A DNA stretch of 60,285 nucleotides from a virus (Duplodnaviria > Caudoviricetes), in IMG/VR virus record IMGVR_UViG_3300033049_000023, positions 1 through 60,285 of that record; one strand, written 5' to 3'. Under the pieces are notes generated by a model, which saw nothing but the letters and a program-made list of their open reading frames with translations, was not told where the DNA came from and did not search any database. Numbering within the stretch: position 1 is the stretch's first letter; each line of letters begins with the position of its first letter. Position numbers and translations under genes: made by a program. This document shows, one piece after another, positions 1,750 to 12,327 of this stretch.

Positions 1750-2471
1750 ATCCGTGGGAACTGACGGTTCGCATTGTCCCTATCTCCGACCTCAAAGAGA
1801 TGGAAAACAATGCCCGCACGCATAGCCCGAGATCGATTGAAGCGATCAAGGACTCACTGGAGCGGAACGAACTTCGCAAGCCCGTGGTGGTGGCTTCGGA
1901 TGGGGTGACTGTGATTGCGGGCAATGGCACACTTGTTGCCGCCCGCCAACTCGGGTGGACTCATCTTTCCGTTGCGGACTCGCCGTTTGAGGCCGGGTCG
2001 AAAGAGGCCCGCGCCTACGCGTTGCAGGATAACCGGACTCAGGAACTTTCGATGTTCGACCGGGACATCCTTGAGGATACTTTGCGGGATTTGGATGATG
2101 GGGCTCTCGGGCTCGGGTGGGACACGGACGAACTATCCGCGTTGCTCCCCCCGCCATCACCGAACGCGGGCGCGGCGGCTCACTTCGGGCAACTCTCAGA
2201 AACTACACACACCATCATTCCCGATGGGGGCTCGGAGGGCTCACCGAGTTCCCCCGGGGGTGTTGGTCTCACGACAAACCCGGTGGTGAATCCATCGGAG
2301 GGGTACGCGACTTTGATCTTGACCGGTACCCAAGAGGAGGTCGCCAAGATGCGTGCGAAACTCAACATCCTCAAATCTCAATGGGGACTCGCGCAACTGG
2401 GGGAGACCGCGTTGCGGTTGCTGAACGAATATGATGCAGGGCCCGGGGCTACCGGGTCGGCTAGTGCTTGA
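1731..2471 (+). CDS. ParB/Srx-like N-terminal domain protein
   Basis: NNARTH..IEAIKDSL..PVVV..VIAGNGTLVAARQLG..AYALQDNR pattern typical of ParB-N domains next to phage DNA-modification genes. Confidence 0.8.
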   Translation: MPEQSVNPWELTVRIVPISDLKEMENNARTHSPRSIEAIKDSLERNELRKPVVVASDGVTVIAGNGTLVAARQLGWTHLSVADSPFEAGSKEARAYALQDNRTQELSMFDRDILEDTLRDLDDGALGLGWDTDELSALLPPPSPNAGAAAHFGQLSETTHTIIPDGGSEGSPSSPGGVGLTTNPVVNPSEGYATLILTGTQEEVAKMRAKLNILKSQWGLAQLGETALRLLNEYDAGPGATGSASA

Positions 2472-3298
2472 TGATGGAGAATGCAATGGAAAACTCAACC
2501 GATCTTCTTACTTGGCCCGACGCGTACCACGGCAAACTTTACAGTGACCCGGACCCCCGCTTCCCCTCGGACCTATACGGGTTTGAGAATGTGACCGAGG
2601 AGAGCAACAACAACGGGGAACCTTGCTCCATCCCAACCTTCGAGGCGGACGGCGTAGGCGGTGGCGTGTTCGGCTATGTGCATAGCGGGCGTGCCGTGGT
2701 GAATGGGCGGGTCGTTGTTGAGGGTCAATGGTTCACCACCGATGACGGGGCCTTCATTGCTCTCAAAGACCCGAACACTCGGATGTTCGCGGTACAACGC
2801 CGAGGATGGAAAGGGTGGAACACGGTTGGCGGTCCTATCGAAAACAAAGGTCGGCTCCGCTATATCGATGGATGCACCGACTCACTTCTTGCTTCACCGA
2901 TCCGGAAGGGCGATGCGTGCCTCAACCATCTCCACTTCCCGGGCGAGATTGACCAGACCCAGCACACCCACCCATCATTGCGATGCGGCATTGTCACCCG
3001 GGGCTCGGGTGAGTGCCGGATTCCAAGCGCGGACGGCAACGGGTACACACCCAAAGCCCTTTCGCCGGGGATGATCTTTGTGATTCCAACGGACGGCGTT
3101 CACGCGTTCTCCACCCTCGGCACCGAGGGTATGGATGTGATTCCGTATCACCCCGATTCAGACTTTGGGCCTGAGGATGAGCATCATCCGATGGTGAACC
3201 GCACGCTTGTGGAAGGTGCCAAACTCGACAACACACAAGGCCGTCACGCGGTCGCTGATCTGGAGAACTCAAGCCTTGGAACTCAAACCGGAAACTAA
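2468..3298 (+). CDS. cupin-domain protein
   Basis: QTQHTHPSLRCGIVTRGSG and GMIFVIPTDGVHAF cupin metal-binding motifs. Confidence 0.8.
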   Translation: MMMENAMENSTDLLTWPDAYHGKLYSDPDPRFPSDLYGFENVTEESNNNGEPCSIPTFEADGVGGGVFGYVHSGRAVVNGRVVVEGQWFTTDDGAFIALKDPNTRMFAVQRRGWKGWNTVGGPIENKGRLRYIDGCTDSLLASPIRKGDACLNHLHFPGEIDQTQHTHPSLRCGIVTRGSGECRIPSADGNGYTPKALSPGMIFVIPTDGVHAFSTLGTEGMDVIPYHPDSDFGPEDEHHPMVNRTLVEGAKLDNTQGRHAVADLENSSLGTQTGN

Positions 3299-3698
3299 AT
3301 ACCTCGTTGAGATTACTTCCTCACTCGGCGCAAGCATCAATGTTTGTATGCCGGGGCGGGAAGTTACAGCCCTATTGGAAACAAGGTTGAACTCCCCCAA
3401 CTCGGGTGTCTACCAACTCAGCGGCGAAGCACTTGTAGCCGACCAAGAGGGCAACGCGGCGTTTGAGCCGAGGTACTTCTGTGTCACGGTAGACAAAATC
3501 TTTTCGGTTGCGGTCGCCGAACTTCCCGTTCAGGTGGCGACTACCCCGGCGATGGCTCAACCGGCGGCAACTGCGGACGCGACCGGGGCTCACTCGTTTG
3601 TGTGGAACGGGAAAGAGGATGTGTGCCGCAAGTGCGGCCTTACGCTCACGAAAGAGCAACGCACGGCGTGCGCTTTCAATACCGAATGCGAGGGATAA
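3276..3698 (+). CDS. hypothetical protein with C-terminal His/Cys Zn-finger-like motif
   Basis: TTG start with GGAGA RBS (my start choice); H..CRKC..C..C tail. Confidence 0.6.
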   Translation: MELKPETKYLVEITSSLGASINVCMPGREVTALLETRLNSPNSGVYQLSGEALVADQEGNAAFEPRYFCVTVDKIFSVAVAELPVQVATTPAMAQPAATADATGAHSFVWNGKEDVCRKCGLTLTKEQRTACAFNTECEG

Positions 3699-3699
3699 A

Positions 3700-5562
3700 A
3701 TGCGGACTGAAATCTTTGCGGACTCAAAGCGGATGGTGGAAACCATCACCAAATCATTCTTGCAGCGCACCCAACTCTCATTGGTGGGTCCCTCGGCTAT
3801 CTCGATCTATGAGGACGCGATGCGGCTTGCCCCGCCTACGAACTGGGGAGTGGCGGCGTTCTCCTCGGGATCAACCGGTAGACCAAAGCCGATCTTCCAT
3901 ACTTGGGACTGTATCGAAATCAACTCGGCGTGGGTCGGTGTGCAAATCGGGTTTACCAATCACAAGCACATTCACGCGACGATGCTTTCACCGATCCATT
4001 GCAACGCGGCGTTCCTCTCGGTCGTCGGTACCACGATGTTTGGTATCAAACTTCGGTTGCGGGGTAGGACACAATCGATTCAAGATTTTATGTGCATGAT
4101 CGGGGATGCAACATCGTTGTCCCTCTCGCCGATGAATCTCCGAGAAATGATCCGGCACCGGGTGGAACTTCCCGAGTCATTGAAAACCATCGTGTGCGCC
4201 TCGGCCCCGCTCACGCAAGAACTTTGCAAACGGGCGGCACTTCTCTGGGGTCACCGAGCATCGATCATCCGGCAGGGGTACGGGCTTACCGAGTTGGTCA
4301 ACTTCTCATTCCTCATGCCGGACCTCTCTGAAAAGCACTCTGAATGGTTCCGGCTCTACTGTGAGAATGAAACCCCGCCGGTGGGTAAAGCCCTCGGGGA
4401 TACTGAAATCAAGTTTGACACCGATGGAAGTATCTCACTCAAATCCCTCGCGTGTGGTGTCCCTGAGTGGCACAAGACGGGCGATGTGGGATGGGTGGAC
4501 GATGACGGCTATTTGGTATTGACGGGCCGCAAACAGGACACCATCAACCGTGGTGGGGTGAGTGTGTTCCCGGGGGCTCTGGAGAAGCACTTCCCAGACG
4601 CGACCGCGTTCGCCGTGCATTCTGATGTACTGGGCGAGGATTTCGGTGTGTACACCTCAGGCAATACCCCTACTTGTGATTCGCAGTTCTGCGCGGCCAT
4701 CACCGAGCCCCTTCCCACTACGGTAACCGGTAAGCCGATGCGGTCGCGGATGCGGGATTTGCTCCCCGCCGTTCCTGAGATTGATTACGACCGGATGCTT
4801 GCTTCGCTCCAGCATGAATCCAGCCGTGCGGCGGGGTTCGATCAAAACTTGATCCGAAACAAAACCCCGCGTGTGGCGTATGCCCTTACTCAGTTGACCC
4901 GCGTTCCGGTGTTGGCACCCAAATATGGATTCTCAGGTTATCACGCGGTACGCCGTGCGGCGGAATGGATCATGGACAACATCCACGACCTCCCCGCCCA
5001 GTACCCGAAAGATATTTGGGAAGCGTTGATGTGCGAAGAACCGATGGGAATCTATGGCGAGTTCATGGCCCGGTTCATCGCCACCCGACCATCGAACCGA
5101 ATCTTGGAGTTCGGTGCGGGGATGGGCAACACCACCCGCAAGGTTCTGGAGAACTTCGGCGGTGAGCATTACAGCGCAACCGACCTCCTCTCACGAAGTA
5201 ATCCGTGGGATATTTCAGTGGGCCCGTTCGGCTCGGGCGACTTCGATGTTTGCTTCGGCACCAATGTACTCCATGCGGTGCCCGAAACGAAACGGCTTGA
5301 CGCGGTAAAGAATCTCATTGCATCGGTGCGCCCCGGCGGCGTGGTTGCGATCTCTGAGGGTTCGCCGACCATCGACGGGGAGCCGTGGCCGATGAACGGG
5401 CTGTTCCCTATCGATGGATGGTGGGATGTTGGCGGGTTTGAGTCCCGGGATTACTGGGTCGCGTTGTTTGAGACGGCGGGGCTGAAACAGATTTGCACCA
5501 TGCGGCTCGGCTCACAACGACACGACCACGGCGGTCTTGTGTGGGGGTCGCGTGATGGGTGA
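3700..5562 (+). CDS. AMP-binding (ANL adenylate-forming) ligase fused to C-terminal SAM-dependent methyltransferase
   Basis: SSGSTGRPK, GYGLTE, TGDVG, GRKQDTINRGG and LPTTVTGK adenylation motifs; ILEFGAGMGNTT, FDVCFGTNVLH and RPGG methyltransferase motifs. Confidence 0.9.
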   Translation: MRTEIFADSKRMVETITKSFLQRTQLSLVGPSAISIYEDAMRLAPPTNWGVAAFSSGSTGRPKPIFHTWDCIEINSAWVGVQIGFTNHKHIHATMLSPIHCNAAFLSVVGTTMFGIKLRLRGRTQSIQDFMCMIGDATSLSLSPMNLREMIRHRVELPESLKTIVCASAPLTQELCKRAALLWGHRASIIRQGYGLTELVNFSFLMPDLSEKHSEWFRLYCENETPPVGKALGDTEIKFDTDGSISLKSLACGVPEWHKTGDVGWVDDDGYLVLTGRKQDTINRGGVSVFPGALEKHFPDATAFAVHSDVLGEDFGVYTSGNTPTCDSQFCAAITEPLPTTVTGKPMRSRMRDLLPAVPEIDYDRMLASLQHESSRAAGFDQNLIRNKTPRVAYALTQLTRVPVLAPKYGFSGYHAVRRAAEWIMDNIHDLPAQYPKDIWEALMCEEPMGIYGEFMARFIATRPSNRILEFGAGMGNTTRKVLENFGGEHYSATDLLSRSNPWDISVGPFGSGDFDVCFGTNVLHAVPETKRLDAVKNLIASVRPGGVVAISEGSPTIDGEPWPMNGLFPIDGWWDVGGFESRDYWVALFETAGLKQICTMRLGSQRHDHGGLVWGSRDG

Positions 5563-5908
5563 TCTATATCAAGCGAAGAAATCTTCCGAAATCCAAATCG
5601 ACGCGGATCAGGTTTATGATTTTCACTATGAGTATGACCCAAACCCGGAGCATACAACGGCGGCGAAGTTTCTCCCTTCTGATTCGGTCTCGGGCATTTA
5701 CCTTCTATCGCTCATCAACCGATGGCTTGTGGAGTCCGAGGAGTTCAAGTTCCGTTGCGGCACGAATCTAAATGTGAAGTTCCTCAGACCGATCTTGATC
5801 CACGAAAAGTTGTCCCTCACTGGATACCAACTCGGGGGTAAGATTGATGTAGTGGTGTACGGGCCCGATGGCGTGCAGCGGATGAAGTATCAACTGGAGA
5901 CGGTGTAA
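5555..5908 (+). CDS. MaoC-like hot-dog fold dehydratase
   Basis: F...DPNPEH (DxNPxH), SGIYLLSL, VKFLRPI motifs. Confidence 0.7.
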   Translation: MGDLYQAKKSSEIQIDADQVYDFHYEYDPNPEHTTAAKFLPSDSVSGIYLLSLINRWLVESEEFKFRCGTNLNVKFLRPILIHEKLSLTGYQLGGKIDVVVYGPDGVQRMKYQLETV

Positions 5909-7137
5909 TGGCGAAACGATCAATCTAGGGCGAGCGACAAAACCTTGAAACCTCGGTTTACGAGGAGGCGAAGCGGCGGATTGGGTATTGCATGGATTCG
6001 TCCGATACCATCGTCGTCGGATTTTCCGGCGGCAAGGATTCGACGGCTCTTCTCAATGTGACTCTTGATGTTGCCGAGGAGCGGAACTACGGCCCGGTGA
6101 AGGCAATCTTTTTCGATGAAGAATGTATGCACCCGGAAACGATTGAATATGTTCAGCGGGTTCGGGAGGACCCGCGCGTGGACCTCACTTGGTCATGTAT
6201 CCCGATCAAGAGCCGCAACGCATCGTCCCGGCTCCATCCGTACTATCTGACCTTTGATCCAGACCCCGCCATCGTGCCGCTCTGGGCCCGTCAACCGCCC
6301 GAGGGGGCGTTCACCTCCGAAACCCACCCGACTGTCCCCCAACTCACCCCAATGGACCAGATGGGGCACCTGTTCCCCGTGAGCGAATGCGGCTCGGTGT
6401 GTCATATGCTCGGGCGCAGGTGTCAGGAATCGGTCACCCGGTGGCGGATGATCTCCAACCGGGGCGGCAAGGACGCGTTCATCAGTAAATCACATATGTC
6501 CCGGTGGAAGCACATTCGCGTTGCCGATCCGATTTACGATTGGCGGACTCAGGATGTTTGGGTTGCCCCGCACCTCTACGGGTGGGACTACAACCGGACC
6601 TATGACATTTACGCCCGGATGGGTGTGCCGCTTCATGCTCAACGGGTGGCCCCGGCGTATGCCGAGGAGTCGAAGTTGCTTTGGGCTTACGCGATTGGCT
6701 GGCCCGATCTCTGGGACAAAATCCAAATGCGGGTTCCCGGCGCGGCGTGCTTTGCCCGGTACAACAAAACCAAACTCTACCGGGGCGGGCTGGCGGGAAG
6801 TTGCGAGCCGTCCGAGGGTGAGTCGTGGCAAGATTATGTCCAACGGCTCCTCATGCTCTGGGGACCGGACACCCGGAAACAGGTGGCGGCAAACATCGTG
6901 CAACTCATCAACCGGCACGACCGGCGGTGTATGCAAGAGCAAGGGTTCGTCGATGGGATTCCAGAAATGGAACGGCACATTCTCTCGGGGGTGTCGTGGA
7001 AGATTCTTGCAAAGGTCGCGTTCCAAGGGATGCTCAAAGGGCGGACACTGAGCCAACTTATGCAGTACCGAGGGAAGATTGAAAAAGTAGAAATCACCAC
7101 CAACGAAAGTGAGGGCTCCGATGCCAACGGCGAGTAA
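5908..7137 (+). CDS. ibrA: IbrA/YbdN-like PAPS-reductase family PP-loop protein (in-frame TAG at 5926-5928; uninterrupted ORF from 5992)
   Basis: FSGGKDS PP-loop, FFDEE, GRRCQESVTR, PIYDWRTQDVW, YNRTYD, QRVAP, WPDLWDKI..RVPG. Confidence 0.85.
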
Positions 7138-7678
7138 GTTTATGGGTACCGAGGCCCAACCAATCTCGATTGTAAAGTGGGTTGATCGCGGTGACCTCAT
7201 CGCAAACGATTACAACCCAAACCATATGGCACCGATGGAATCGAAACTCCTCAAAGTTTCGCTCCTCGAAAACGGTTGGACCCAACCGATTGTCGTGATG
7301 AATGATTGGCGGACGATCATCGACGGATTCCATCGGTGGAACTTGTCGGAGGATACTGAAATCTTTGCGATGACCGGCGGGCTTGTGCCCGTGGTGATGG
7401 CGGACATTTCCGAGGCGCAGCGAATCGCGGCAACGGTCCGGCACAACCGAGCGCGTGGGCAACACGCAATCGATCCGATGGGTGACATCACCCACAAACT
7501 TCGGGCGGTCGGCATGACCGACGACGAAATCAAAACGAATCTTGGGATGCAAGCGGAAGAAGTGATCCGCCTTGCCGAAGTTCGGGGCTCACCTCAGCGG
7601 GTCACCGACGACGAACAGCAGGAACTTGGGGCCGCTTGGAACCCCGGCGAGTACAATCCGCACGCGCCCGGCGAATAA
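7121..7678 (+). CDS. ibrB: IbrB/YbdM-like ParB/Srx domain protein
   Basis: ANDYNPN, LLKVSLLENGWTQPIV, IIDGFHR, ATVRHNRARG, LGMQAEEV.RL. Confidence 0.9.
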   Translation: MPTASKFMGTEAQPISIVKWVDRGDLIANDYNPNHMAPMESKLLKVSLLENGWTQPIVVMNDWRTIIDGFHRWNLSEDTEIFAMTGGLVPVVMADISEAQRIAATVRHNRARGQHAIDPMGDITHKLRAVGMTDDEIKTNLGMQAEEVIRLAEVRGSPQRVTDDEQQELGAAWNPGEYNPHAPGE

Positions 7679-7704
7679 ATCTCAATCTAAATACAGCCCT
7701 CACG

Positions 7705-7736
7705 ACCCGCAAGCATCGATCTTGCGGGTTTTTTTT
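7705..7736 (+). terminator. Rho-independent terminator closing the ibr/ligase operon
   Basis: ACCCGCAAG-loop-CTTGCGGGT followed by T-run. Confidence 0.85.
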
Positions 7737-7754: not shown

Positions 7755-7815
7755 TTGATTGACACATCAATAAACACCCGATACACTTACAGTGCCGAGG
7801 GATTGTCCTCGGCAC
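7755..7815 (+). promoter_or_regulatory. sigma70-type promoter with operator and 5' hairpin (repeat copy A)
   Basis: TTGACA(7759)-17-TACACT(7782); ATTGACACATCAAT; hairpin GTGCCGAGG-GATTGT-CCTCGGCAC. Confidence 0.8.
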
Positions 7816-7831
7816 GCATGAGGATGCAGCC

Positions 7832-8746
7832 ATGACTATTACAGCAAACGATCTGACCTTCGGCATTGAAATCGAGACCCATGTTTCCCGTGAGAGCAAT
7901 CACCGGCCATCCGGTTACCGCCGCACGAACGACTACGCCACCCGCTTACCTAAGTTCGGGAACGGTTCATGGATGATGACCACCGATGTTACCATTGCGT
8001 GCCCATCGGGCCGGACCGATTGTGAGTTCGTATCACCGATCCTAAAGGGTGCCGATGGCTTGCGGAATGTGATGACCGCCGTGCAAAAGATGCGTGAGGA
8101 AACCCCGGACGGTTGCGGTGCCAAAGTAAACTACTCATGCGGCATCCATGTTCATGTTCAGTTCCCCACCAATGACCTCAAAGCCCTCCGCCGTCTGGTT
8201 CACCTAGTCGCCGCGTTTGAGGGTGGGTTGTACGCCGCGAGCGGAACCAAATCACGCGAGCAAAGTCGCTGGTGCCGGTCGATCAAAGAGACCCACAAAG
8301 GAATCAACGGGAATAAATCGAATCTCCGCGAGGTCATAAACGACAGCGGCGTAAGTCTCAATCATCGCTATGTTTCCTTGAACCTCGTCCCCTTCATCGC
8401 GGGCACTCGCCCCACGGTTGAGTTCCGGTGCTTCTCCGGTTCACTAAACGAAACCAAGATCGCCGGGTATGTCCAAATGTGCATCGGCATGGTTGAGATG
8501 GCGTTGTCGATGAAGTCGGTTGCCCATTGGGATTCCGGCCTTGCCGGTCCTACCTACGGGAAAGACGCTGGACCGGGTGAGCGTGAGTTCAACCGATTGA
8601 TGAAGCGTCTCGGGTGGTCCGGCCTGATGAATAAAAGATCAACAGCCGACCGGGGAATCTTGACCGACGAAACCGGGGACCTCCCCACCAAACGCCGGAT
8701 GCTAAACAAAATGCGTGCGATGGCTCGGAAGTACGATGCCGCATAA
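7832..8746 (+). CDS. putative amidoligase (COOH-NH2 ligase, glutamine-synthetase-like fold)
   Basis: TFGIEIE, D.TI, EFVSPIL, SCGIHVH, RYVSLN, TVEFR motifs. Confidence 0.85.
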   Translation: MTITANDLTFGIEIETHVSRESNHRPSGYRRTNDYATRLPKFGNGSWMMTTDVTIACPSGRTDCEFVSPILKGADGLRNVMTAVQKMREETPDGCGAKVNYSCGIHVHVQFPTNDLKALRRLVHLVAAFEGGLYAASGTKSREQSRWCRSIKETHKGINGNKSNLREVINDSGVSLNHRYVSLNLVPFIAGTRPTVEFRCFSGSLNETKIAGYVQMCIGMVEMALSMKSVAHWDSGLAGPTYGKDAGPGEREFNRLMKRLGWSGLMNKRSTADRGILTDETGDLPTKRRMLNKMRAMARKYDAA

Positions 8747-8826
8747 ATGAAATCCTCATGCCGGGGGCTCGGCGGGAACGCCGGGTTGCCCGATTCTGTT
8801 TCACTCACCTCAGTTGGAGAATAAAA

Positions 8827-9390
8827 ATGTCATACTCACTTGTATTTGTTTATGGAACTTTGATGTCCGGTCACCAAAACGCCCGCCTACTTCACGGCGC
8901 AATGCTTGTCGGTTCGGGCCGGACTGAGAGCAAACTATTCGTTATGCGGGACTCGGGTTTCCCCATCGTTTCCCATGCGACCGCCGAGGACCCCGAGGAT
9001 GCCCGAGGAGCCGTAATAGGCGAGGTGTACCGCGTACCGGATCAAGCTATGCTGGCACGCTTAGACAGTCTGGAGGGGCACCCCACTTGGTACCGCCGTG
9101 AGAATATCACGGTGGCCCTCGATACCGCCGAGGGTGAACCGTCGATTCTCGTTGCTGAAATGTACATCATGCCGAGGGAAATGGCGGACGGTCGGGAGTT
9201 CATCAAAGATTTGGATTATGCGACGCACGAATCAAAGCGTCGGAAGTACCACGCCGCCTATCAACCCATGACCGATGATGAGATTGAGGACGCGGATGAA
9301 GGGTACGCATATTTTTCTGATGCGGCTACTCAGGATGCGGAGGACGATTTGCGGTGGCGGAATGAGGTCGGATTGCCCGATGATGATTGA
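8827..9390 (+). CDS. gamma-glutamylcyclotransferase (AIG2-like)
   Basis: VFVYGTL, GEVYRV, LDSLEGHP.WYRR; GGAG RBS. Confidence 0.9.
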   Translation: MSYSLVFVYGTLMSGHQNARLLHGAMLVGSGRTESKLFVMRDSGFPIVSHATAEDPEDARGAVIGEVYRVPDQAMLARLDSLEGHPTWYRRENITVALDTAEGEPSILVAEMYIMPREMADGREFIKDLDYATHESKRRKYHAAYQPMTDDEIEDADEGYAYFSDAATQDAEDDLRWRNEVGLPDDD

Positions 9391-9396
9391 GCCGAC

Positions 9397-9425
9397 TTGA
9401 CATACCGATCAATATCTTGTATAAT
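9397..9425 (+). promoter_or_regulatory. consensus sigma70 promoter
   Basis: TTGACA-17-TATAAT. Confidence 0.85.
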
Positions 9426-9467
9426 GTGATAGATGTGTAAATAAACTACTCACTTAGGAGACTAAAA

Positions 9468-10394
9468 ATGTGCGGACTATTCGGAGCAATATGTAAAGGT
9501 CGTCGGTCGCTCACCGCTTCGACCATACGGAACTTAGCGGTGGCCCAAGAAAAAAGGGGCCCTCACGCGTTCGGGTTTGCGTGGATCGATTCATCAAACC
9601 GGATTCACTACTACAAACAACAGGGCCGCATTTCGCAGGCACTACACACCCTCGATATGATCGGGGACGCGTGGGCGGTGATCGGCCACACCCGTTGGCT
9701 TACCCACGGGAGCGCAGAGCGTATGGAAAACAATCACCCGCATTCGTGTGATGGCGGTTGGATTGCACACAACGGGCAAATACCGAACTACCTCGAACTT
9801 GCCGACGAACACGATTTGATTCTAAACTCAGAATGTGACTCGGAAGTTCTGGCGGCACTCATCGCCCAGACCGGCGGGGGCAAATCATTGATCCGCCGGA
9901 TTTCTACCTCGGTAAATCGATGCGACCGCAACCGACCCCTTGCGATGGCGGGCCTATGGAACCGACCCGGGCGGCTCGCCCTTGTGCGTAGGGGAAACCC
10001 GATCATGCTCGGGGAGGGCGCGGCGGGCAATGTGTACTTTGGTACCTCACGAATCAAATCGACCCGGATGGTTTGGACCGCGATGGATGACAATGAGGTT
10101 CGTGTATTCGATCTCACCTCGGGAGATGAATCGACCCGCTCGGTTTACCGGTCTCACCCGCCGAAGGTTGGCGAGAAGGTGTTGGGCTCGAACTTCTTTG
10201 GCGAAAGAAACTGCTTTGCGGACAATCCCGATCTTGATGGTGCCGACGATCGATCCTACAACTGGGACGCGTTGCCTCAGGCCAAGCGGGGCTCGAACGG
10301 TCACACCTCAGGCGGGCGCAGGAGCGTATTGGGATACAAGGGCCCGGGGATGGTCCAGCGGGCAACGCGTTTGATTACGGAGGGCTCACGATGA
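9468..10394 (+). CDS. class II (Ntn) glutamine amidotransferase
   Basis: N-terminal MCGLFG, RGPHAFG, IGHTRW.THG, NNHP, HNGQI.N, DSE. Confidence 0.9.
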   Translation: MCGLFGAICKGRRSLTASTIRNLAVAQEKRGPHAFGFAWIDSSNRIHYYKQQGRISQALHTLDMIGDAWAVIGHTRWLTHGSAERMENNHPHSCDGGWIAHNGQIPNYLELADEHDLILNSECDSEVLAALIAQTGGGKSLIRRISTSVNRCDRNRPLAMAGLWNRPGRLALVRRGNPIMLGEGAAGNVYFGTSRIKSTRMVWTAMDDNEVRVFDLTSGDESTRSVYRSHPPKVGEKVLGSNFFGERNCFADNPDLDGADDRSYNWDALPQAKRGSNGHTSGGRRSVLGYKGPGMVQRATRLITEGSR

Positions 10395-10636: not shown

Positions 10637-10887
10637 GAACTGGAGAAGCGCAATCATTGATTGGAGAATATGTGATAGCCCATCAAACCCGGGGGCGTGG
10701 TCACCGGGCGAGTCAGCCGTGCAAGTTGGTTTCGGTAAACGCACGCAAGGGGACCGTGGTGGTTCGACCTAAAAACAATCACGGTCAGGATGAGACCTTC
10801 CCGTTATCCCTCATCAAGCGATGGATCAAAGGGGACCACCAAGCCCGTGAACTCCGCCTTACGCGGAAGCGTGCGCAGAGTGGCTAG
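10633..10887 (+). CDS. hypothetical protein
   Basis: ATGA overlap; AGGAG RBS. Confidence 0.6.
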   Translation: MRTGEAQSLIGEYVIAHQTRGRGHRASQPCKLVSVNARKGTVVVRPKNNHGQDETFPLSLIKRWIKGDHQARELRLTRKRAQSG

Positions 10888-11242
10888 GGCTCGCCGGATC
10901 AATCTGGGCAAGGCGTGCCCCCGGCTACGCGACGACCTTGGACTCATCAAACGGTTGATGGCGAGGGTCGTTGTTGGCCCGGGCGGGTGTTGGATTTGGA
11001 CTGGGTACACCGACTCTCAGGGTTATGGGCAAATCAGCGTCCGGGGAAAACCAATGTGGGTCCATCGGGTGACCTATGCGATATTCAAACAGTCGCTTAG
11101 GGAGGGCGATGAGATCGACCACAAATGTTCCAACTCCTCATGTTGTAATCCGATGCACCTACGGCGCGTGCATCCTAAAGTAAACCGAGGCCAACGCTGG
11201 CCCACCAAAAAGAAATCAAGCGGCGAACTTCCGCCGTTCTAG
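10880..11242 (+). CDS. HNH endonuclease
   Basis: CWIWTG..GYG..HRVTY..IDHKCSNSSCCNPMHL. Confidence 0.85.
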   Translation: MARARRINLGKACPRLRDDLGLIKRLMARVVVGPGGCWIWTGYTDSQGYGQISVRGKPMWVHRVTYAIFKQSLREGDEIDHKCSNSSCCNPMHLRRVHPKVNRGQRWPTKKKSSGELPPF

Positions 11243-12250: not shown

Positions 12251-12313
12251 TTGATTGACGCGTGAATAAATATCCGATACACTTAGGGTGCCGGGGGATT
12301 GTCCTCGGCACCC
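12251..12313 (+). promoter_or_regulatory. promoter/operator/hairpin repeat copy B
   Basis: TTGACG(12255)-17-TACACT(12278); ATTGACGCGTGAAT; hairpin GGGTGCCGGGG-GATTGT-CCTCGGCACCC. Confidence 0.8.
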
Positions 12314-12327
12314 ATGAGGTATTTACG

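What the first reader, a model, noticed from the sequence alone, without database searches (positions are those of the whole stretch)
3700..5908. Phage-encoded adenylation domain fused to a PKS-type C-methyltransferase, with no evident carrier protein
Seen: a full set of ANL core motifs followed by ILEFGAGMGNTT / TNVLH / PGG / GWW, which resemble methyltransferases embedded in PKS/NRPS (His in the NVLH motif). The next gene is a hot-dog dehydratase. I found no phosphopantetheine (DSL-type) carrier or PPTase in the genome. Inference: it works on CoA or borrows host ACP, doing acyl activation, methylation and dehydration. Such chemistry is rare in phages.
Basis: partly seen in the sequence, partly recalled or inferred. 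Interest (0 to 1): 0.72.

Follow-up and report, generated by a model that had tools for sequence, protein, structure and literature searches.

The report
Phage ligase fused to C-methyltransferase
A phage carries a rare two-part enzyme that should activate a carboxylic acid and methylate it; it sits with a dehydratase-like protein inside a common phage operon (cupin, IbrA, IbrB) of unknown function, which suggests a small-molecule step that some phages add to that operon.

Summary
Gene 3700-5562 (620 aa) is an ANL adenylate-forming domain followed by a class I methyltransferase. The methyltransferase's nearest solved relatives are PKS C-methyltransferases, and the His/Glu dyad is kept. Gene 5555-5908 is a MaoC-like hot-dog protein. 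The complete 60-kb phage genome has no carrier protein or PPTase match.

One correction: the ANL motif set is not full. About 95 N-terminal residues and a 15-residue stretch in the A6 region are missing compared with all homologues. Two other family members share the short N-terminus, so this looks like a subtype, not decay.

The protein belongs to a rare, uncharacterised ANL-MT family: 37 end-to-end representatives among the 150 best rows from 1.84 billion. Members occur in bacteria and a few viral contigs. Recurring partners are a 3-His cupin upstream and a hot-dog protein downstream.

New here: this cupin sits directly upstream of IbrA, with IbrB nearby, in 33 of 49 viral IbrA loci. In the window, ANL-MT and the hot-dog gene lie between cupin and IbrA. 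A distant 37%-GC contig has the order ANL-MT, hot-dog, PAPS-reductase-like gene, IbrA, IbrB.

The likeliest mechanism is CoA-thioester activation, alpha-C-methylation, then hydration or dehydration. Substrate and end product are unknown.

The parts
2468..3298 (+). 3-His cupin (276 aa), first gene of the module
   Evidence: Cupin_2 scores 26.8 bits, just under the 27.2 cut-off. The family has 2805 clusters, all unnamed or 'cupin'. H165, H167, H211, H227 and H239 are invariant in 18 sequences. It is 59% identical to the cupin beside the ANL-MT gene in genome G066. A 35-56% identical cupin lies upstream of IbrA in 33 of 49 viral loci.
3276..3698 (+). ORFan (about 140 aa; ORF opens at TTG 3207), Cys-rich C-terminus, function unknown
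   Evidence: No Pfam, NCBIfam or PHROG hit. hhalign against the ANL-MT family gives probability 0.14. tblastn finds no homologue in 24 related loci.
3700..5562 (+). ANL-MT fusion gene (620 aa plus stop)
3700..4767 (+). Shortened ANL adenylate-forming domain (residues 1-356): P-loop at 55-63, A5 at 192-198, A7 at 260-262, A8 at 276-286, A10 lysine K345
   Evidence: AMP-binding at 56.1 bits. The family profile's best solved relatives are FadD13, oxalate-CoA ligase, feruloyl-CoA synthetase, 4CL, MenE and MatB. Truncation is shown and no remnant is found.
4768..5103 (+). Linker and probable helical lid of the methyltransferase (residues 357-468; W440, P448 invariant, Y452 nearly invariant)
   Evidence: Family alignment. 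The lid role is inferred from PKS C-MT structures as described in passages of PMC9821293.
5104..5559 (+). Class I SAM methyltransferase core of PKS C-MT type (residues 469-620): ExGxGxG 470-476, D495, N522/H525, E553/G554, GWW 573-575
   Evidence: Methyltransf_12 at 29.0 bits. CurJ C-MT 5thy at E 1.9e-19, with the His and Glu aligned. In 201 genomes, every hit other than the one family member lies in an open frame of 740-14,476 aa, mostly giant and PKS-sized.
5555..5908 (+). MaoC-like hot-dog hydratase/dehydratase (117 aa); its start overlaps the ANL-MT stop by 8 nt
5992..7137 (+). IbrA-like PP-loop ATPase (PAPS_reduct plus DUF3440)
   Evidence: Pfam. Weak DndC-like NCBIfam match, below cut-off. 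38% identical to the L156 IbrA. Phage records annotate relatives as IbrA or PAPS reductase.
7109..7678 (+). IbrB-like protein (start may be ATG 7142)
   Evidence: No Pfam hit. It is 40% identical (E 5e-41) to the annotated IbrB of Streptococcus phage CHPC1148 and 36% identical to that of Flavobacterium phage 23T. An IbrB homologue is adjacent to IbrA in 47 of 49 viral loci.
7704..7730 (+). Terminator-like hairpin (10-bp stem plus T run) closing the cupin-to-IbrB unit
   Evidence: This is a consensus scan only.
7755..7823 (+). Promoter-like 69-nt element with a hairpin that opens the next unit (amidoligase); a second copy lies at 12251-12319
   Evidence: 87% identical copies.

Best explanation
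Gene 3700-5562 encodes a real and probably active bifunctional enzyme. It is an N-terminally shortened ANL-superfamily ligase, closest to acyl-CoA synthetases, fused to a SAM-dependent C-methyltransferase of the kind normally embedded in polyketide synthases. It belongs to a rare, uncharacterised ANL-MT family. That family's recurring partners are a 3-His cupin (upstream) and a hot-dog protein (downstream).

Proposed mechanism (inferred):
1. The ANL domain adenylates a small carboxylic acid, perhaps related to the cupin's substrate or product.
2. It passes the acyl group to the thiol of host CoA.
3. The tethered MT domain uses His525/Glu553 to deprotonate the activated alpha-carbon and methylate it from SAM.
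4. The MaoC-like protein hydrates or dehydrates the acyl thioester.

In this phage the pair has been placed inside a widespread phage operon, cupin-IbrA-IbrB. The product therefore most likely modifies or feeds whatever that operon does. That function is unknown; IbrA is a PP-loop ATPase with weak DndC-like similarity.

Shown: domain identities, conserved catalytic residues, family rarity, the conserved partners, the operon layout, and the absence of a carrier or PPTase. Inferred: CoA as acceptor, the order of steps, the substrate, and the functional tie to IbrA/IbrB.
For: Domains:
- Pfam finds both domains.
- The MT profile's best solved relatives are PKS C-MTs: CurJ 1.9e-19, DisA 3.7e-14, LovB 1.3e-13, PksCT 5.6e-13, PsoF 1.4e-12. 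The NVLH histidine and the following glutamate align to CurJ.
- Passages of PMC9821293 describe a His-Glu dyad plus a Tyr acting on beta-ketoacyl-carrier substrates in these C-MTs.
- The ANL half is closest to acyl-CoA synthetases, for example FadD13 at 6.5e-47 and oxalate-CoA ligase at 1.3e-46.

Conserved residues: all 60 columns invariant in the 24-sequence family alignment, which by construction includes the window protein.

Short N-terminus is a subtype: P0217 (648 aa, the L156 type) and P0222 (611 aa) also place the P-loop near residues 55-58.

Family size: 20 full-length relatives at 29-33% identity. 37 of the 150 best rows from 1.84 billion representatives match end to end.

Partners, counted over 10 distinct loci where the flank can be seen:
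- A window-type cupin lies within two genes upstream in 6 (window, L082, L086, L153, L149, L222). Another Cupin_2 lies upstream in L150.
- A hot-dog gene lies downstream in 5 loci (window, L081, L149, L156 of one type; L147 a 4HBT). It is fused in P0013.
- Hot-dog enzymes act on thioesters (established knowledge), which favours a thioester intermediate.

ibr linkage:
- L156 carries ANL-MT, hot-dog, a PAPS-reductase-like gene, IbrA and IbrB in that order. Identities to the window are 27/32/38/45% and its GC is 36.7% against 56.3%.
- The cupin lies upstream of IbrA in 33 of 49 viral loci.

Operon layout: starts and stops overlap or abut from 2468 to 7678, a terminator-like hairpin lies at 7704-7730, and a promoter-like element lies at 7759-7787.

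Assembly is sound: contigs from further samples bridge the gene junctions at 2756-3962, 3367-4040, 5265-5685 and 5498-6122.
Against: - No member of the family has been characterised, and no structure could be predicted.
- The ANL domain lacks its first roughly 150 residues compared with FadD13.
- The window protein has one of the longest tree branches, 2.43 against a median of 0.7. This could mean relaxed constraint.
- Methyltransf_12 is 1 bit under Pfam's cut-off. AMP-binding_C is not detected.
- PKS C-MTs are known on carrier-bound beta-ketoacyl substrates (passages), not on CoA esters.
- A C-MT product (alpha-methyl-beta-keto) is not a dehydratase substrate without a ketoreductase, and none is seen in the operon.
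- In some relatives the hot-dog is a 4HBT thioesterase rather than MaoC-like. The role of the hot-dog partner may therefore be product release.
- ANL-MT occurs with the cupin but without IbrA in G066. 0 of 49 viral IbrA loci carry ANL-MT. The tie to IbrA/IbrB rests on two loci.
Confidence: 0.55

Rival explanations
1. Carrier-dependent route. The ANL domain loads the acyl group onto a host acyl or peptidyl carrier protein. The C-MT and MaoC-like enzymes then act on the carrier-bound intermediate, as in PKS and FAS systems.
For: All solved relatives of the MT domain act on ACP- or T-domain-bound substrates (passages). In L149 the same cassette (cupin, ANL, hot-dog, ANL-MT) follows an NRPS with PCP, C, A and TE domains. 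A related stand-alone ANL sits beside a cupin and a KS-AT-DH-KR-ACP PKS on a Pseudonocardia plasmid.
Against: The complete phage genome has no PP-binding or PPTase match. None is seen in the G066, L150 or L156 neighbourhoods examined. The ANL half is closest to CoA ligases. The search for longer fused forms found none, which is weak evidence.
Confidence: 0.2
2. No thioester at all. The acyl-adenylate is attacked directly by an amine or hydroxyl, so the enzyme is an amide or ester bond synthetase. It attaches a methylated acyl group to a target made or bound by neighbouring proteins (IbrA/IbrB, or the amidoligase unit).
For: No carrier is found. The C-terminal ANL subdomain is compact, with no AMP-binding_C hit. 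Bacterial relatives sit next to an ATP-grasp L-amino-acid ligase (L150) or a CysRS-like ligase (L154). The phage neighbours are Amidoligase_2, GGACT and GATase.
Against: Hot-dog partners recur with the family, in 5 of 10 loci plus one fusion. Such enzymes work on thioesters. A terminator-like site separates the amidoligase unit from this operon. Amidoligase, GGACT and GATase are found in 0 of 49 viral IbrA loci.
Confidence: 0.15
3. Decaying passenger. The gene is a truncated, inactive remnant of a bacterial ANL-MT picked up by the phage, with no role in the operon.
For: It lacks about 95 N-terminal residues and a 15-residue stretch in the A6 region. Its tree branch is very long. Pfam scores are low.
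Against: The frame is intact at 620 aa. Every family-invariant catalytic residue is kept. Two other members independently have the same short N-terminus, one of them also ibr-linked. The gene is translationally coupled to its neighbours. The sequence is near-identical in runs from 2 studies.
Confidence: 0.07

Closest known systems
PKS C-methyltransferase domains (CurJ C-MT 5thy, DisA 6cca, LovB CMeT 7cpx, PksCT CMeT 5mpt, PsoF 6kjg)
   Same: Class I SAM fold. The His in an NxxH motif and a Glu 26-28 residues later align with CurJ. The G-W-W region is shared with CurJ's GLLEGWW. These are the best sequence matches among solved structures. The dyad mechanism is described in passages of PMC9821293.
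   Different: The domain is not embedded in a PKS. There is no KS or ACP in the protein or the genome. It follows an ANL domain. The substrate is unknown. Pfam Methyltransf_12 is 1 bit under its cut-off.
Acyl-CoA synthetases of the ANL superfamily (FadD13 3r44, oxalate-CoA ligase 5ie0, feruloyl-CoA synthetase, 4CL, MenE, MatB)
   Same: Motifs A3, A5, A7, A8 and the A10 lysine are present. These are the best solved relatives of the family profile.
   Different: The whole family starts about 45 residues later than FadD13, and the window protein about 95 later still. AMP-binding_C is not detected. An MT domain is fused after A10. Short ANLs such as the 362-position MenE model NF005877 exist. That such enzymes are active is recalled, not tested.
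Interrupted NRPS adenylation domains with embedded methyltransferases (recalled from the literature, not examined here)
   Same: Adenylation and methylation occur in one polypeptide.
   Different: As recalled, those MTs are inserted within the A domain, are N-, O- or S-methyltransferases, and work with a T domain. Here a C-MT-type domain follows the complete C-terminal ANL subdomain, and there is no carrier.
MaoC / (R)-specific enoyl-CoA hydratase hot-dog proteins
   Same: Hot-dog fold at TM 0.75-0.77 to MaoC-like models and a feature score of 0.94. The D-x-N-x-x-H pattern is kept in all 4 homologues. That this is the hydratase-2 motif is recalled.
   Different: The window protein has no Pfam or NCBIfam hit. 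In other family loci the partner is a 4HBT thioesterase.
[quoted passage not shown]
   Same: IbrA has the PAPS_reduct PP-loop plus DUF3440. IbrB is 40% identical to an annotated phage IbrB. The pair is adjacent, as in 47 of 49 viral loci.
   Different: Papers seen only repeat the 'co-activator' label (passages). No biochemical function is known. The cupin partner and the ANL-MT/hot-dog insertion were not found in print by the searches run.

Membership tests
ANL superfamily (class I adenylate-forming enzymes) | Pfam AMP-binding match above the gathering score | tested here: met
   56.1 bits against a cut-off of 29.9, residues 51-238.
ANL superfamily (class I adenylate-forming enzymes) | Core motifs A3 (P-loop), A5, A7 Asp, A8 hinge and A10 Lys | tested here: met
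   S56 G57 T59 P62 K63; Q192-E198; T260 D262; G276 R277 G286; K345. All are invariant in 24 sequences.
ANL superfamily (class I adenylate-forming enzymes) | Complete N-terminal domain (A1/A2 region) and a full-length A6 region | tested here: not met
   The match starts at profile position 166 of 384. About 95 residues and a 15-residue stretch are missing compared with homologues. No remnant is found in the window.
ANL superfamily (class I adenylate-forming enzymes) | C-terminal subdomain recognised as AMP-binding_C | tested here: not met
   No PF13193 hit at E<=0.01. A8 and A10 are nevertheless present.
PKS-type C-methyltransferase (Methyltransf_12-like) | SAM-binding ExGxGxG and the acidic residue after strand 2 | tested here: met
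   E470, G472, G474, G476 and D495 are invariant.
PKS-type C-methyltransferase (Methyltransf_12-like) | His-Glu catalytic dyad | tested here: met
   H525 and E553 are invariant. They align with the His of NVLH and the Glu of LVLYE in CurJ. The dyad is described in passages of PMC9821293.
PKS-type C-methyltransferase (Methyltransf_12-like) | Pfam Methyltransf_12 above the gathering score | tested here: inconclusive
   29.0 bits against a cut-off of 30 for the window protein. The precomputed Pfam column lists PF08242 for all 20 full-length homologues.
PKS-type C-methyltransferase (Methyltransf_12-like) | Acts on a carrier-bound beta-ketoacyl substrate within a PKS | tested here: not met
   No PP-binding match in the genome. 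The protein stands alone. The substrate itself cannot be tested here.
MaoC-like dehydratase (hot-dog) | Hot-dog fold | tested here: met
   The Atlas's own model (pTM 0.65) aligns at TM 0.75-0.77 with MaoC-like and FAS1-DH models.
MaoC-like dehydratase (hot-dog) | Catalytic Asp and His of the hydratase-2 motif (the motif is recalled) | tested here: met
   D28, N30 and H33 are invariant in 4 homologues.
MaoC-like dehydratase (hot-dog) | Pfam MaoC_dehydratas above the gathering score | tested here: not met
   No hit for the window protein. The L081 homologue scores 24.8 bits against a cut-off of 27.
NRPS/PKS assembly line | Carrier protein and phosphopantetheinyl transferase | tested here: not met
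   PF00550 and PF01648 give 0 matches at E<=10 in the complete genome, with controls positive.
NRPS/PKS assembly line | KS or condensation domain in the genome | not tested
   No dedicated search was run. None appeared among the 28 window proteins scanned with Pfam or PHROGs.
IbrA/IbrB module | PP-loop PAPS-reductase-like protein with DUF3440, next to an IbrB homologue | tested here: met

The most novel reading that the evidence does not exclude
The operon cupin, ANL/C-MT, MaoC, IbrA, IbrB is a phage pathway. It would build a methyl-branched acyl group on CoA. It would then install that group on a macromolecule, most attractively a nucleic-acid base, through the DndC-like PP-loop ATPase IbrA and the ParB-like IbrB. 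On this reading the common cupin-IbrA-IbrB module is a basic modification system, and ANL-MT plus hot-dog is an optional elaboration of the group transferred.
Probability: 0.12. Interest if true: 0.85.

Novelty: new variant of a known kind. Interest (0 to 1): 0.56.

Why it matters
C-methyltransferases of the PKS type are known as parts of assembly lines working on carrier-bound chains. A free-standing version welded to a CoA-ligase-like domain, in a phage with no carrier, would be a compact two-step device for making alpha-methylated acyl thioesters. That would interest enzymologists and pathway engineers.

It also gives a handle on IbrA/IbrB. This gene pair is widespread in phages, and the papers seen give it only a regulatory label. 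The finding that a conserved 3-His cupin is its usual partner, and that some phages insert acyl-activating and tailoring enzymes between them, points to small-molecule or modification chemistry. Co-expression of the operon with and without the inserted genes can test this directly.

Tried and rejected
Tried and rejected or uninformative:

1. ORF 3276-3698 as a cryptic carrier or the missing ANL N-terminus. It has no Pfam, NCBIfam or PHROG hit. hhalign against the family gives probability 0.14. No homologue is found in 24 related loci. No support found.
2. A frameshifted remnant of the missing N-terminus. tblastn with 23 N-terminal pieces and a six-frame HMM search found nothing significant; the best was E 0.41, far from the gene.
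3. The window hot-dog as the same family as the 4HBT domain fused in P0013. BLASTP shows no similarity.
4. The Pseudonocardia plasmid cupin beside a related ANL as the same family as the phage cupin. BLASTP shows no similarity, E 0.14.
5. The genome-contig scan with the full-length alignment.
6. Context of the Photorhabdus/Pectobacterium-type member. No full-length match in plasmids. 0 of 401 genomes in the order of G002 matched.
7. Longer fused forms of the MT half. None were found, which is weak evidence.
8. P0222 in viral contigs: none. The cupin in 50,697 phage records: no match.
9. The C4 protein (216-224 aa) downstream of ANL-MT in L082, L084 and L153. Its only Atlas neighbours are viral hypothetical proteins. 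Unresolved.
10. Expression: no RNA holder listed.
14. Literature. Searches found no paper on an ANL/C-MT didomain family, on cupin-IbrA-IbrB, or on the listed accessions. For PMC4490671, PMC5874904, PMC12839542 and PMC9821293 I saw only the passages returned by 'find'. All other papers were seen as search listings only. Supplements were not consulted and could hold gene tables that bear on IbrA/IbrB contexts.
15. Tree. This is a quick tree only, because the careful search did not finish. It has 57 rows. I left out fragment rows (P0209, P0221, P0223, P0248, P0253, P0259), two-stretch rows other than P0222, P0003, the duplicates L083 and L085, and L145, L147, L222. The window joins P0222 at support 96, but both are long branches, so that join is unsure. 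The four rows labelled viral (window, L081, L082, L084) fall in three groups, and P0217 (the L156 type) falls elsewhere.
16. The 49 IbrA loci were not de-replicated (for example, L223-L227 give the same values). Some are cut by contig ends, so 33 of 49 is a raw count.


Full report
WHAT IS THERE

The window is a complete phage genome: an IMG/VR record with direct terminal repeats, estimated 100% complete. It encodes a large terminase, a portal, a tape-measure protein and a tail protein. It also encodes family A DNA polymerase, SNF2-like and RecD/PIF1-like helicases, and a primase-helicase. GC content is even along the genome at 0.54-0.59.

On the + strand, the region of interest reads as follows:
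- 1731-2471: ORF with no family hit.
- 2468-3298: cupin.
- 3276-3698: ORFan.
- 3700-5562: the ANL-MT gene.
- 5555-5908: hot-dog protein.
- 5992-7137: IbrA-like (PAPS_reduct plus DUF3440).
- 7109-7678: IbrB-like.
- 7832-8746: Amidoligase_2.
- 8827-9390: GGACT.
- 9468-10394: class II GATase.

Starts and stops overlap or abut from 2468 to 7678. A terminator-like hairpin lies at 7704-7730 and a promoter-like element at 7759-7787, so they separate this block from the amidoligase unit. The promoter-like 69-nt element recurs at 12251-12319 with 87% identity.

THE TARGET PROTEIN

Pfam finds AMP-binding at 56.1 bits (cut-off 29.9) on residues 51-238. It finds Methyltransf_12 at 29.0 bits (cut-off 30) on residues 469-549.

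About 20 proteins of 692-887 aa cover at least 91% of it at 29-33% identity and carry both domains. In a 24-sequence alignment, 60 columns are invariant. They include:
- the P-loop (S56 G57 T59 P62 K63), A5 (Q192-E198), A7 (T260 D262), A8 (G276 R277 G286) and the A10 lysine K345;
- the SAM motif E470xGxGxG476 and D495;
- N522/H525, E553/G554 and G573-W574.

A profile of the MT half finds PKS C-methyltransferases as the best solved relatives. CurJ scores 1.9e-19, followed by DisA, LovB, PksCT and PsoF. The family His and Glu align to CurJ's NVLH histidine and LVLYE glutamate. Passages of PMC9821293 describe that His-Glu dyad, plus a Tyr, acting on beta-ketoacyl-carrier substrates.

In 201 genomes of one bacterial family, the MT profile found one true family member at E 2.4e-89. 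Every other hit lay in an open frame of 740-14,476 aa, mostly giant and PKS-sized.

The family profile's ANL half is closest to acyl-CoA synthetases: FadD13, oxalate-CoA ligase, feruloyl-CoA synthetase, 4CL, MenE and MatB.

THE CORRECTION: A SHORT ANL DOMAIN

The window protein lacks about 95 N-terminal residues and a 15-residue stretch in the A6 region compared with all homologues. The missing piece is not encoded upstream or elsewhere in the window.

Two other members also have only about 55 residues before the P-loop. They are P0217 (648 aa, the full form of the L156 protein) and P0222 (611 aa). The short form is therefore a recurring subtype and not an accident of this genome. The window protein nevertheless sits on a very long branch, 2.43 against a median of 0.7.

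THE NEXT GENE

The 117-aa product of 5555-5908 has no Pfam or NCBIfam hit. Other evidence places it as MaoC-like:
- ESM Atlas gives a feature score of 0.94 to MaoC-like clusters and TM 0.75-0.77 to MaoC-like models.
- Homologues follow ANL-MT genes in L081, L149 and L156.
- The L081 homologue hits MaoC_dehydratas at E 1.7e-5.
- D28, N30 and H33 are invariant. This matches the recalled hydratase-2 pattern.
- A 4-sequence profile's best solved match is FabZ, weakly, at E 0.0014.

NO CARRIER

Six-frame searches of the whole genome for PP-binding and ACPS gave no match at E<=10. Controls were positive.

HOW RARE, AND WHERE

- No phage record among 50,697 holds a full-length relative.
- IMG/VR gives five loci on about three kinds of contig.
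- Twelve metagenome loci match the MT domain well.
- Among 1.84 billion representatives, 37 of the 150 best rows match end to end.
- One cluster at over 90% identity spans Photorhabdus, Pectobacterium, Klebsiella aerogenes, Musicola and Pantoea. This suggests horizontal spread.
- In a quick tree the four rows labelled viral fall in three groups and the ibr-linked P0217 falls elsewhere. Long branches limit this result.

CONSERVED PARTNERS

I clustered the neighbours by BLASTP and annotated them with Pfam.

Over the 10 distinct loci whose flanks can be seen:
- A cupin of the window's type lies within two genes upstream in six: window, L082, L086, L153, L149 and L222. The L222 cupin is 59% identical to the window's.
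- A different Cupin_2 lies upstream in L150.
- A hot-dog gene follows in five. One type is found in the window, L081, L149 and L156. L147 has a 4HBT thioesterase.
- P0013 has a fused 4HBT.

The wider contexts differ:
- L149: an NRPS with PCP, C, A and TE domains.
- L150: Rieske protein, MFS transporter and an ATP-grasp amino-acid ligase.
- G066: a Liv-type ABC importer.
- L154: a CysRS-like ligase.
- L151: a large cluster with a stand-alone MT, the cupin, NDK-like proteins, a nucleotidyltransferase and a PLD.
- A related stand-alone ANL lies next to an unrelated cupin and a KS-AT-DH-KR-ACP PKS on a Pseudonocardia plasmid.

THE IBR LINK

L156 is a 4.3-kb contig at 36.7% GC. It carries ANL-MT, hot-dog, a PAPS-reductase-like gene, IbrA and IbrB in that order. 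Identities to the window proteins are 27%, 32%, 38% and 45%.

I then collected 49 viral IbrA loci and searched them with the window's proteins:
- IbrB is adjacent in 47.
- The window-type cupin (35-56% identical) lies just upstream of IbrA in 33.
- An extra PAPS-reductase-like gene is present in 9.
- ANL-MT, hot-dog, amidoligase, GGACT and GATase are present in none.

The loci are not de-replicated and some are cut by contig ends.

So cupin-IbrA-IbrB is a common phage module, and the window has three extra genes between cupin and IbrA. Conversely, G066 has the cupin and ANL-MT but no IbrA match. The cupin is therefore the shared element.

The cupin family is large, at 2805 clusters, and unnamed. 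H165, H167, H211, H227 and H239 are invariant, which looks like a 3-His metal site.

The window's IbrB is 40% identical to an annotated IbrB of a Streptococcus phage. IbrA has only weak DndC-like matches, below cut-off. [quoted passage not shown]

ASSEMBLY CHECK

The stretch 2468-7678 is held by 8 runs of 2 studies. Whole-length contigs in X1 and X2 may be the source of the record. Fragment contigs of X4 and X5 bridge the cupin/ORFan/ANL-MT, ANL-MT/hot-dog and hot-dog/IbrA junctions with 0-1 differences. The gene order is therefore not an assembly artefact.

MECHANISM

The best-supported reading runs as follows.
1. The ANL domain adenylates a small carboxylate.
2. It forms a thioester with host CoA.
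3. The MT domain C-methylates the activated alpha-carbon through His525/Glu553.
4. The MaoC-like protein hydrates or dehydrates the acyl thioester, or possibly releases it.

The thioester step is inferred from two observations: the recurring hot-dog partners and the CoA-ligase affinities of the ANL half. The acceptor, the order of steps and the substrate are not shown. A weak point is that a C-MT product needs a ketoreductase before a dehydratase could act on it, and none is seen in the operon.

The rivals are loading onto a host carrier (0.2), direct amide or ester formation (0.15) and an inactive remnant (0.07).

The placement inside cupin-IbrA-IbrB suggests that the product serves that module. 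This rests on two loci.

COMPARISON AND NOVELTY

Both domains are of known kinds. Three things are new:
- the free-standing ANL-then-C-MT didomain family, which is uncharacterised as far as my searches show;
- its shortened form in a carrier-less phage;
- its insertion into a cupin-IbrA-IbrB operon.

I rate it a new variant of a known kind, with moderate interest. It would rank higher if the IbrA/IbrB module proves to be a modification system that uses the product.

LIMITS

- No structure could be predicted.
- Supplements were not read.

Noticed in passing
window 2468-3298 with 5992-7678; loci L223-L259: A conserved phage module: the 3-His cupin lies directly upstream of IbrA in 33 of 49 viral IbrA loci, IbrB is adjacent in 47 of 49, and an extra PAPS-reductase-like gene is present in 9 of 49. 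The cupin has no match in 50,697 phage records. Its family has 2805 unnamed clusters.
   Followed up: partly
window 7755-7823 and 12251-12319: A 69-nt direct repeat (87% identical) that holds a TTGACA-17-TACACT promoter-like site and a GC-rich hairpin just before a start codon. It looks like a repeated phage promoter/leader element.
   Followed up: partly
window 9397-9425: A perfect 12-of-12 sigma-70 consensus (TTGACA, 17 nt, TATAAT) upstream of the GATase gene at 9468.
   Followed up: no
window 7832-10394: An Amidoligase_2, GGACT (gamma-glutamyl cyclotransferase-like) and class II glutamine amidotransferase trio forms its own unit after the terminator-like site. None of the three is seen in the 49 viral IbrA loci.
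   Followed up: partly
proteins P0215, P0239-P0332: The ANL subfamily closest to this protein is repeated 5-10 times in giant proteins of 3,462-7,864 aa. Their nature was not examined.
   Followed up: no
L151 5774-20087: A bacterial cluster holds a stand-alone MT of this family and the window-type cupin. It also holds a condensation domain, SIS and DAO proteins, an NTP_transf_5 nucleotidyltransferase, three NDK-like proteins, another methyltransferase, a PLD-like protein and an ABC ATPase-like protein.
   Followed up: no
cluster of P0004: ANL-MT proteins over 90% identical are named from Photorhabdus laumondii, Pectobacterium species, Klebsiella aerogenes, Musicola keenii and Pantoea. A near relative is named from Pasteurella multocida. 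This suggests a mobile element, but its context could not be retrieved.
   Followed up: partly
L082 9797-10447, L084 9829-10503, L153 5090-5752: A 216-224 aa protein (58-62% identical among these loci) follows ANL-MT where other loci have a hot-dog gene. It has no Pfam hit, and its Atlas neighbours are viral hypothetical proteins, one cluster with 17% Asp_Arg_Hydrox.
   Followed up: partly
window 10790-11242: An HNH / His-Me finger endonuclease-like ORF lies just after the GATase unit.
   Followed up: no
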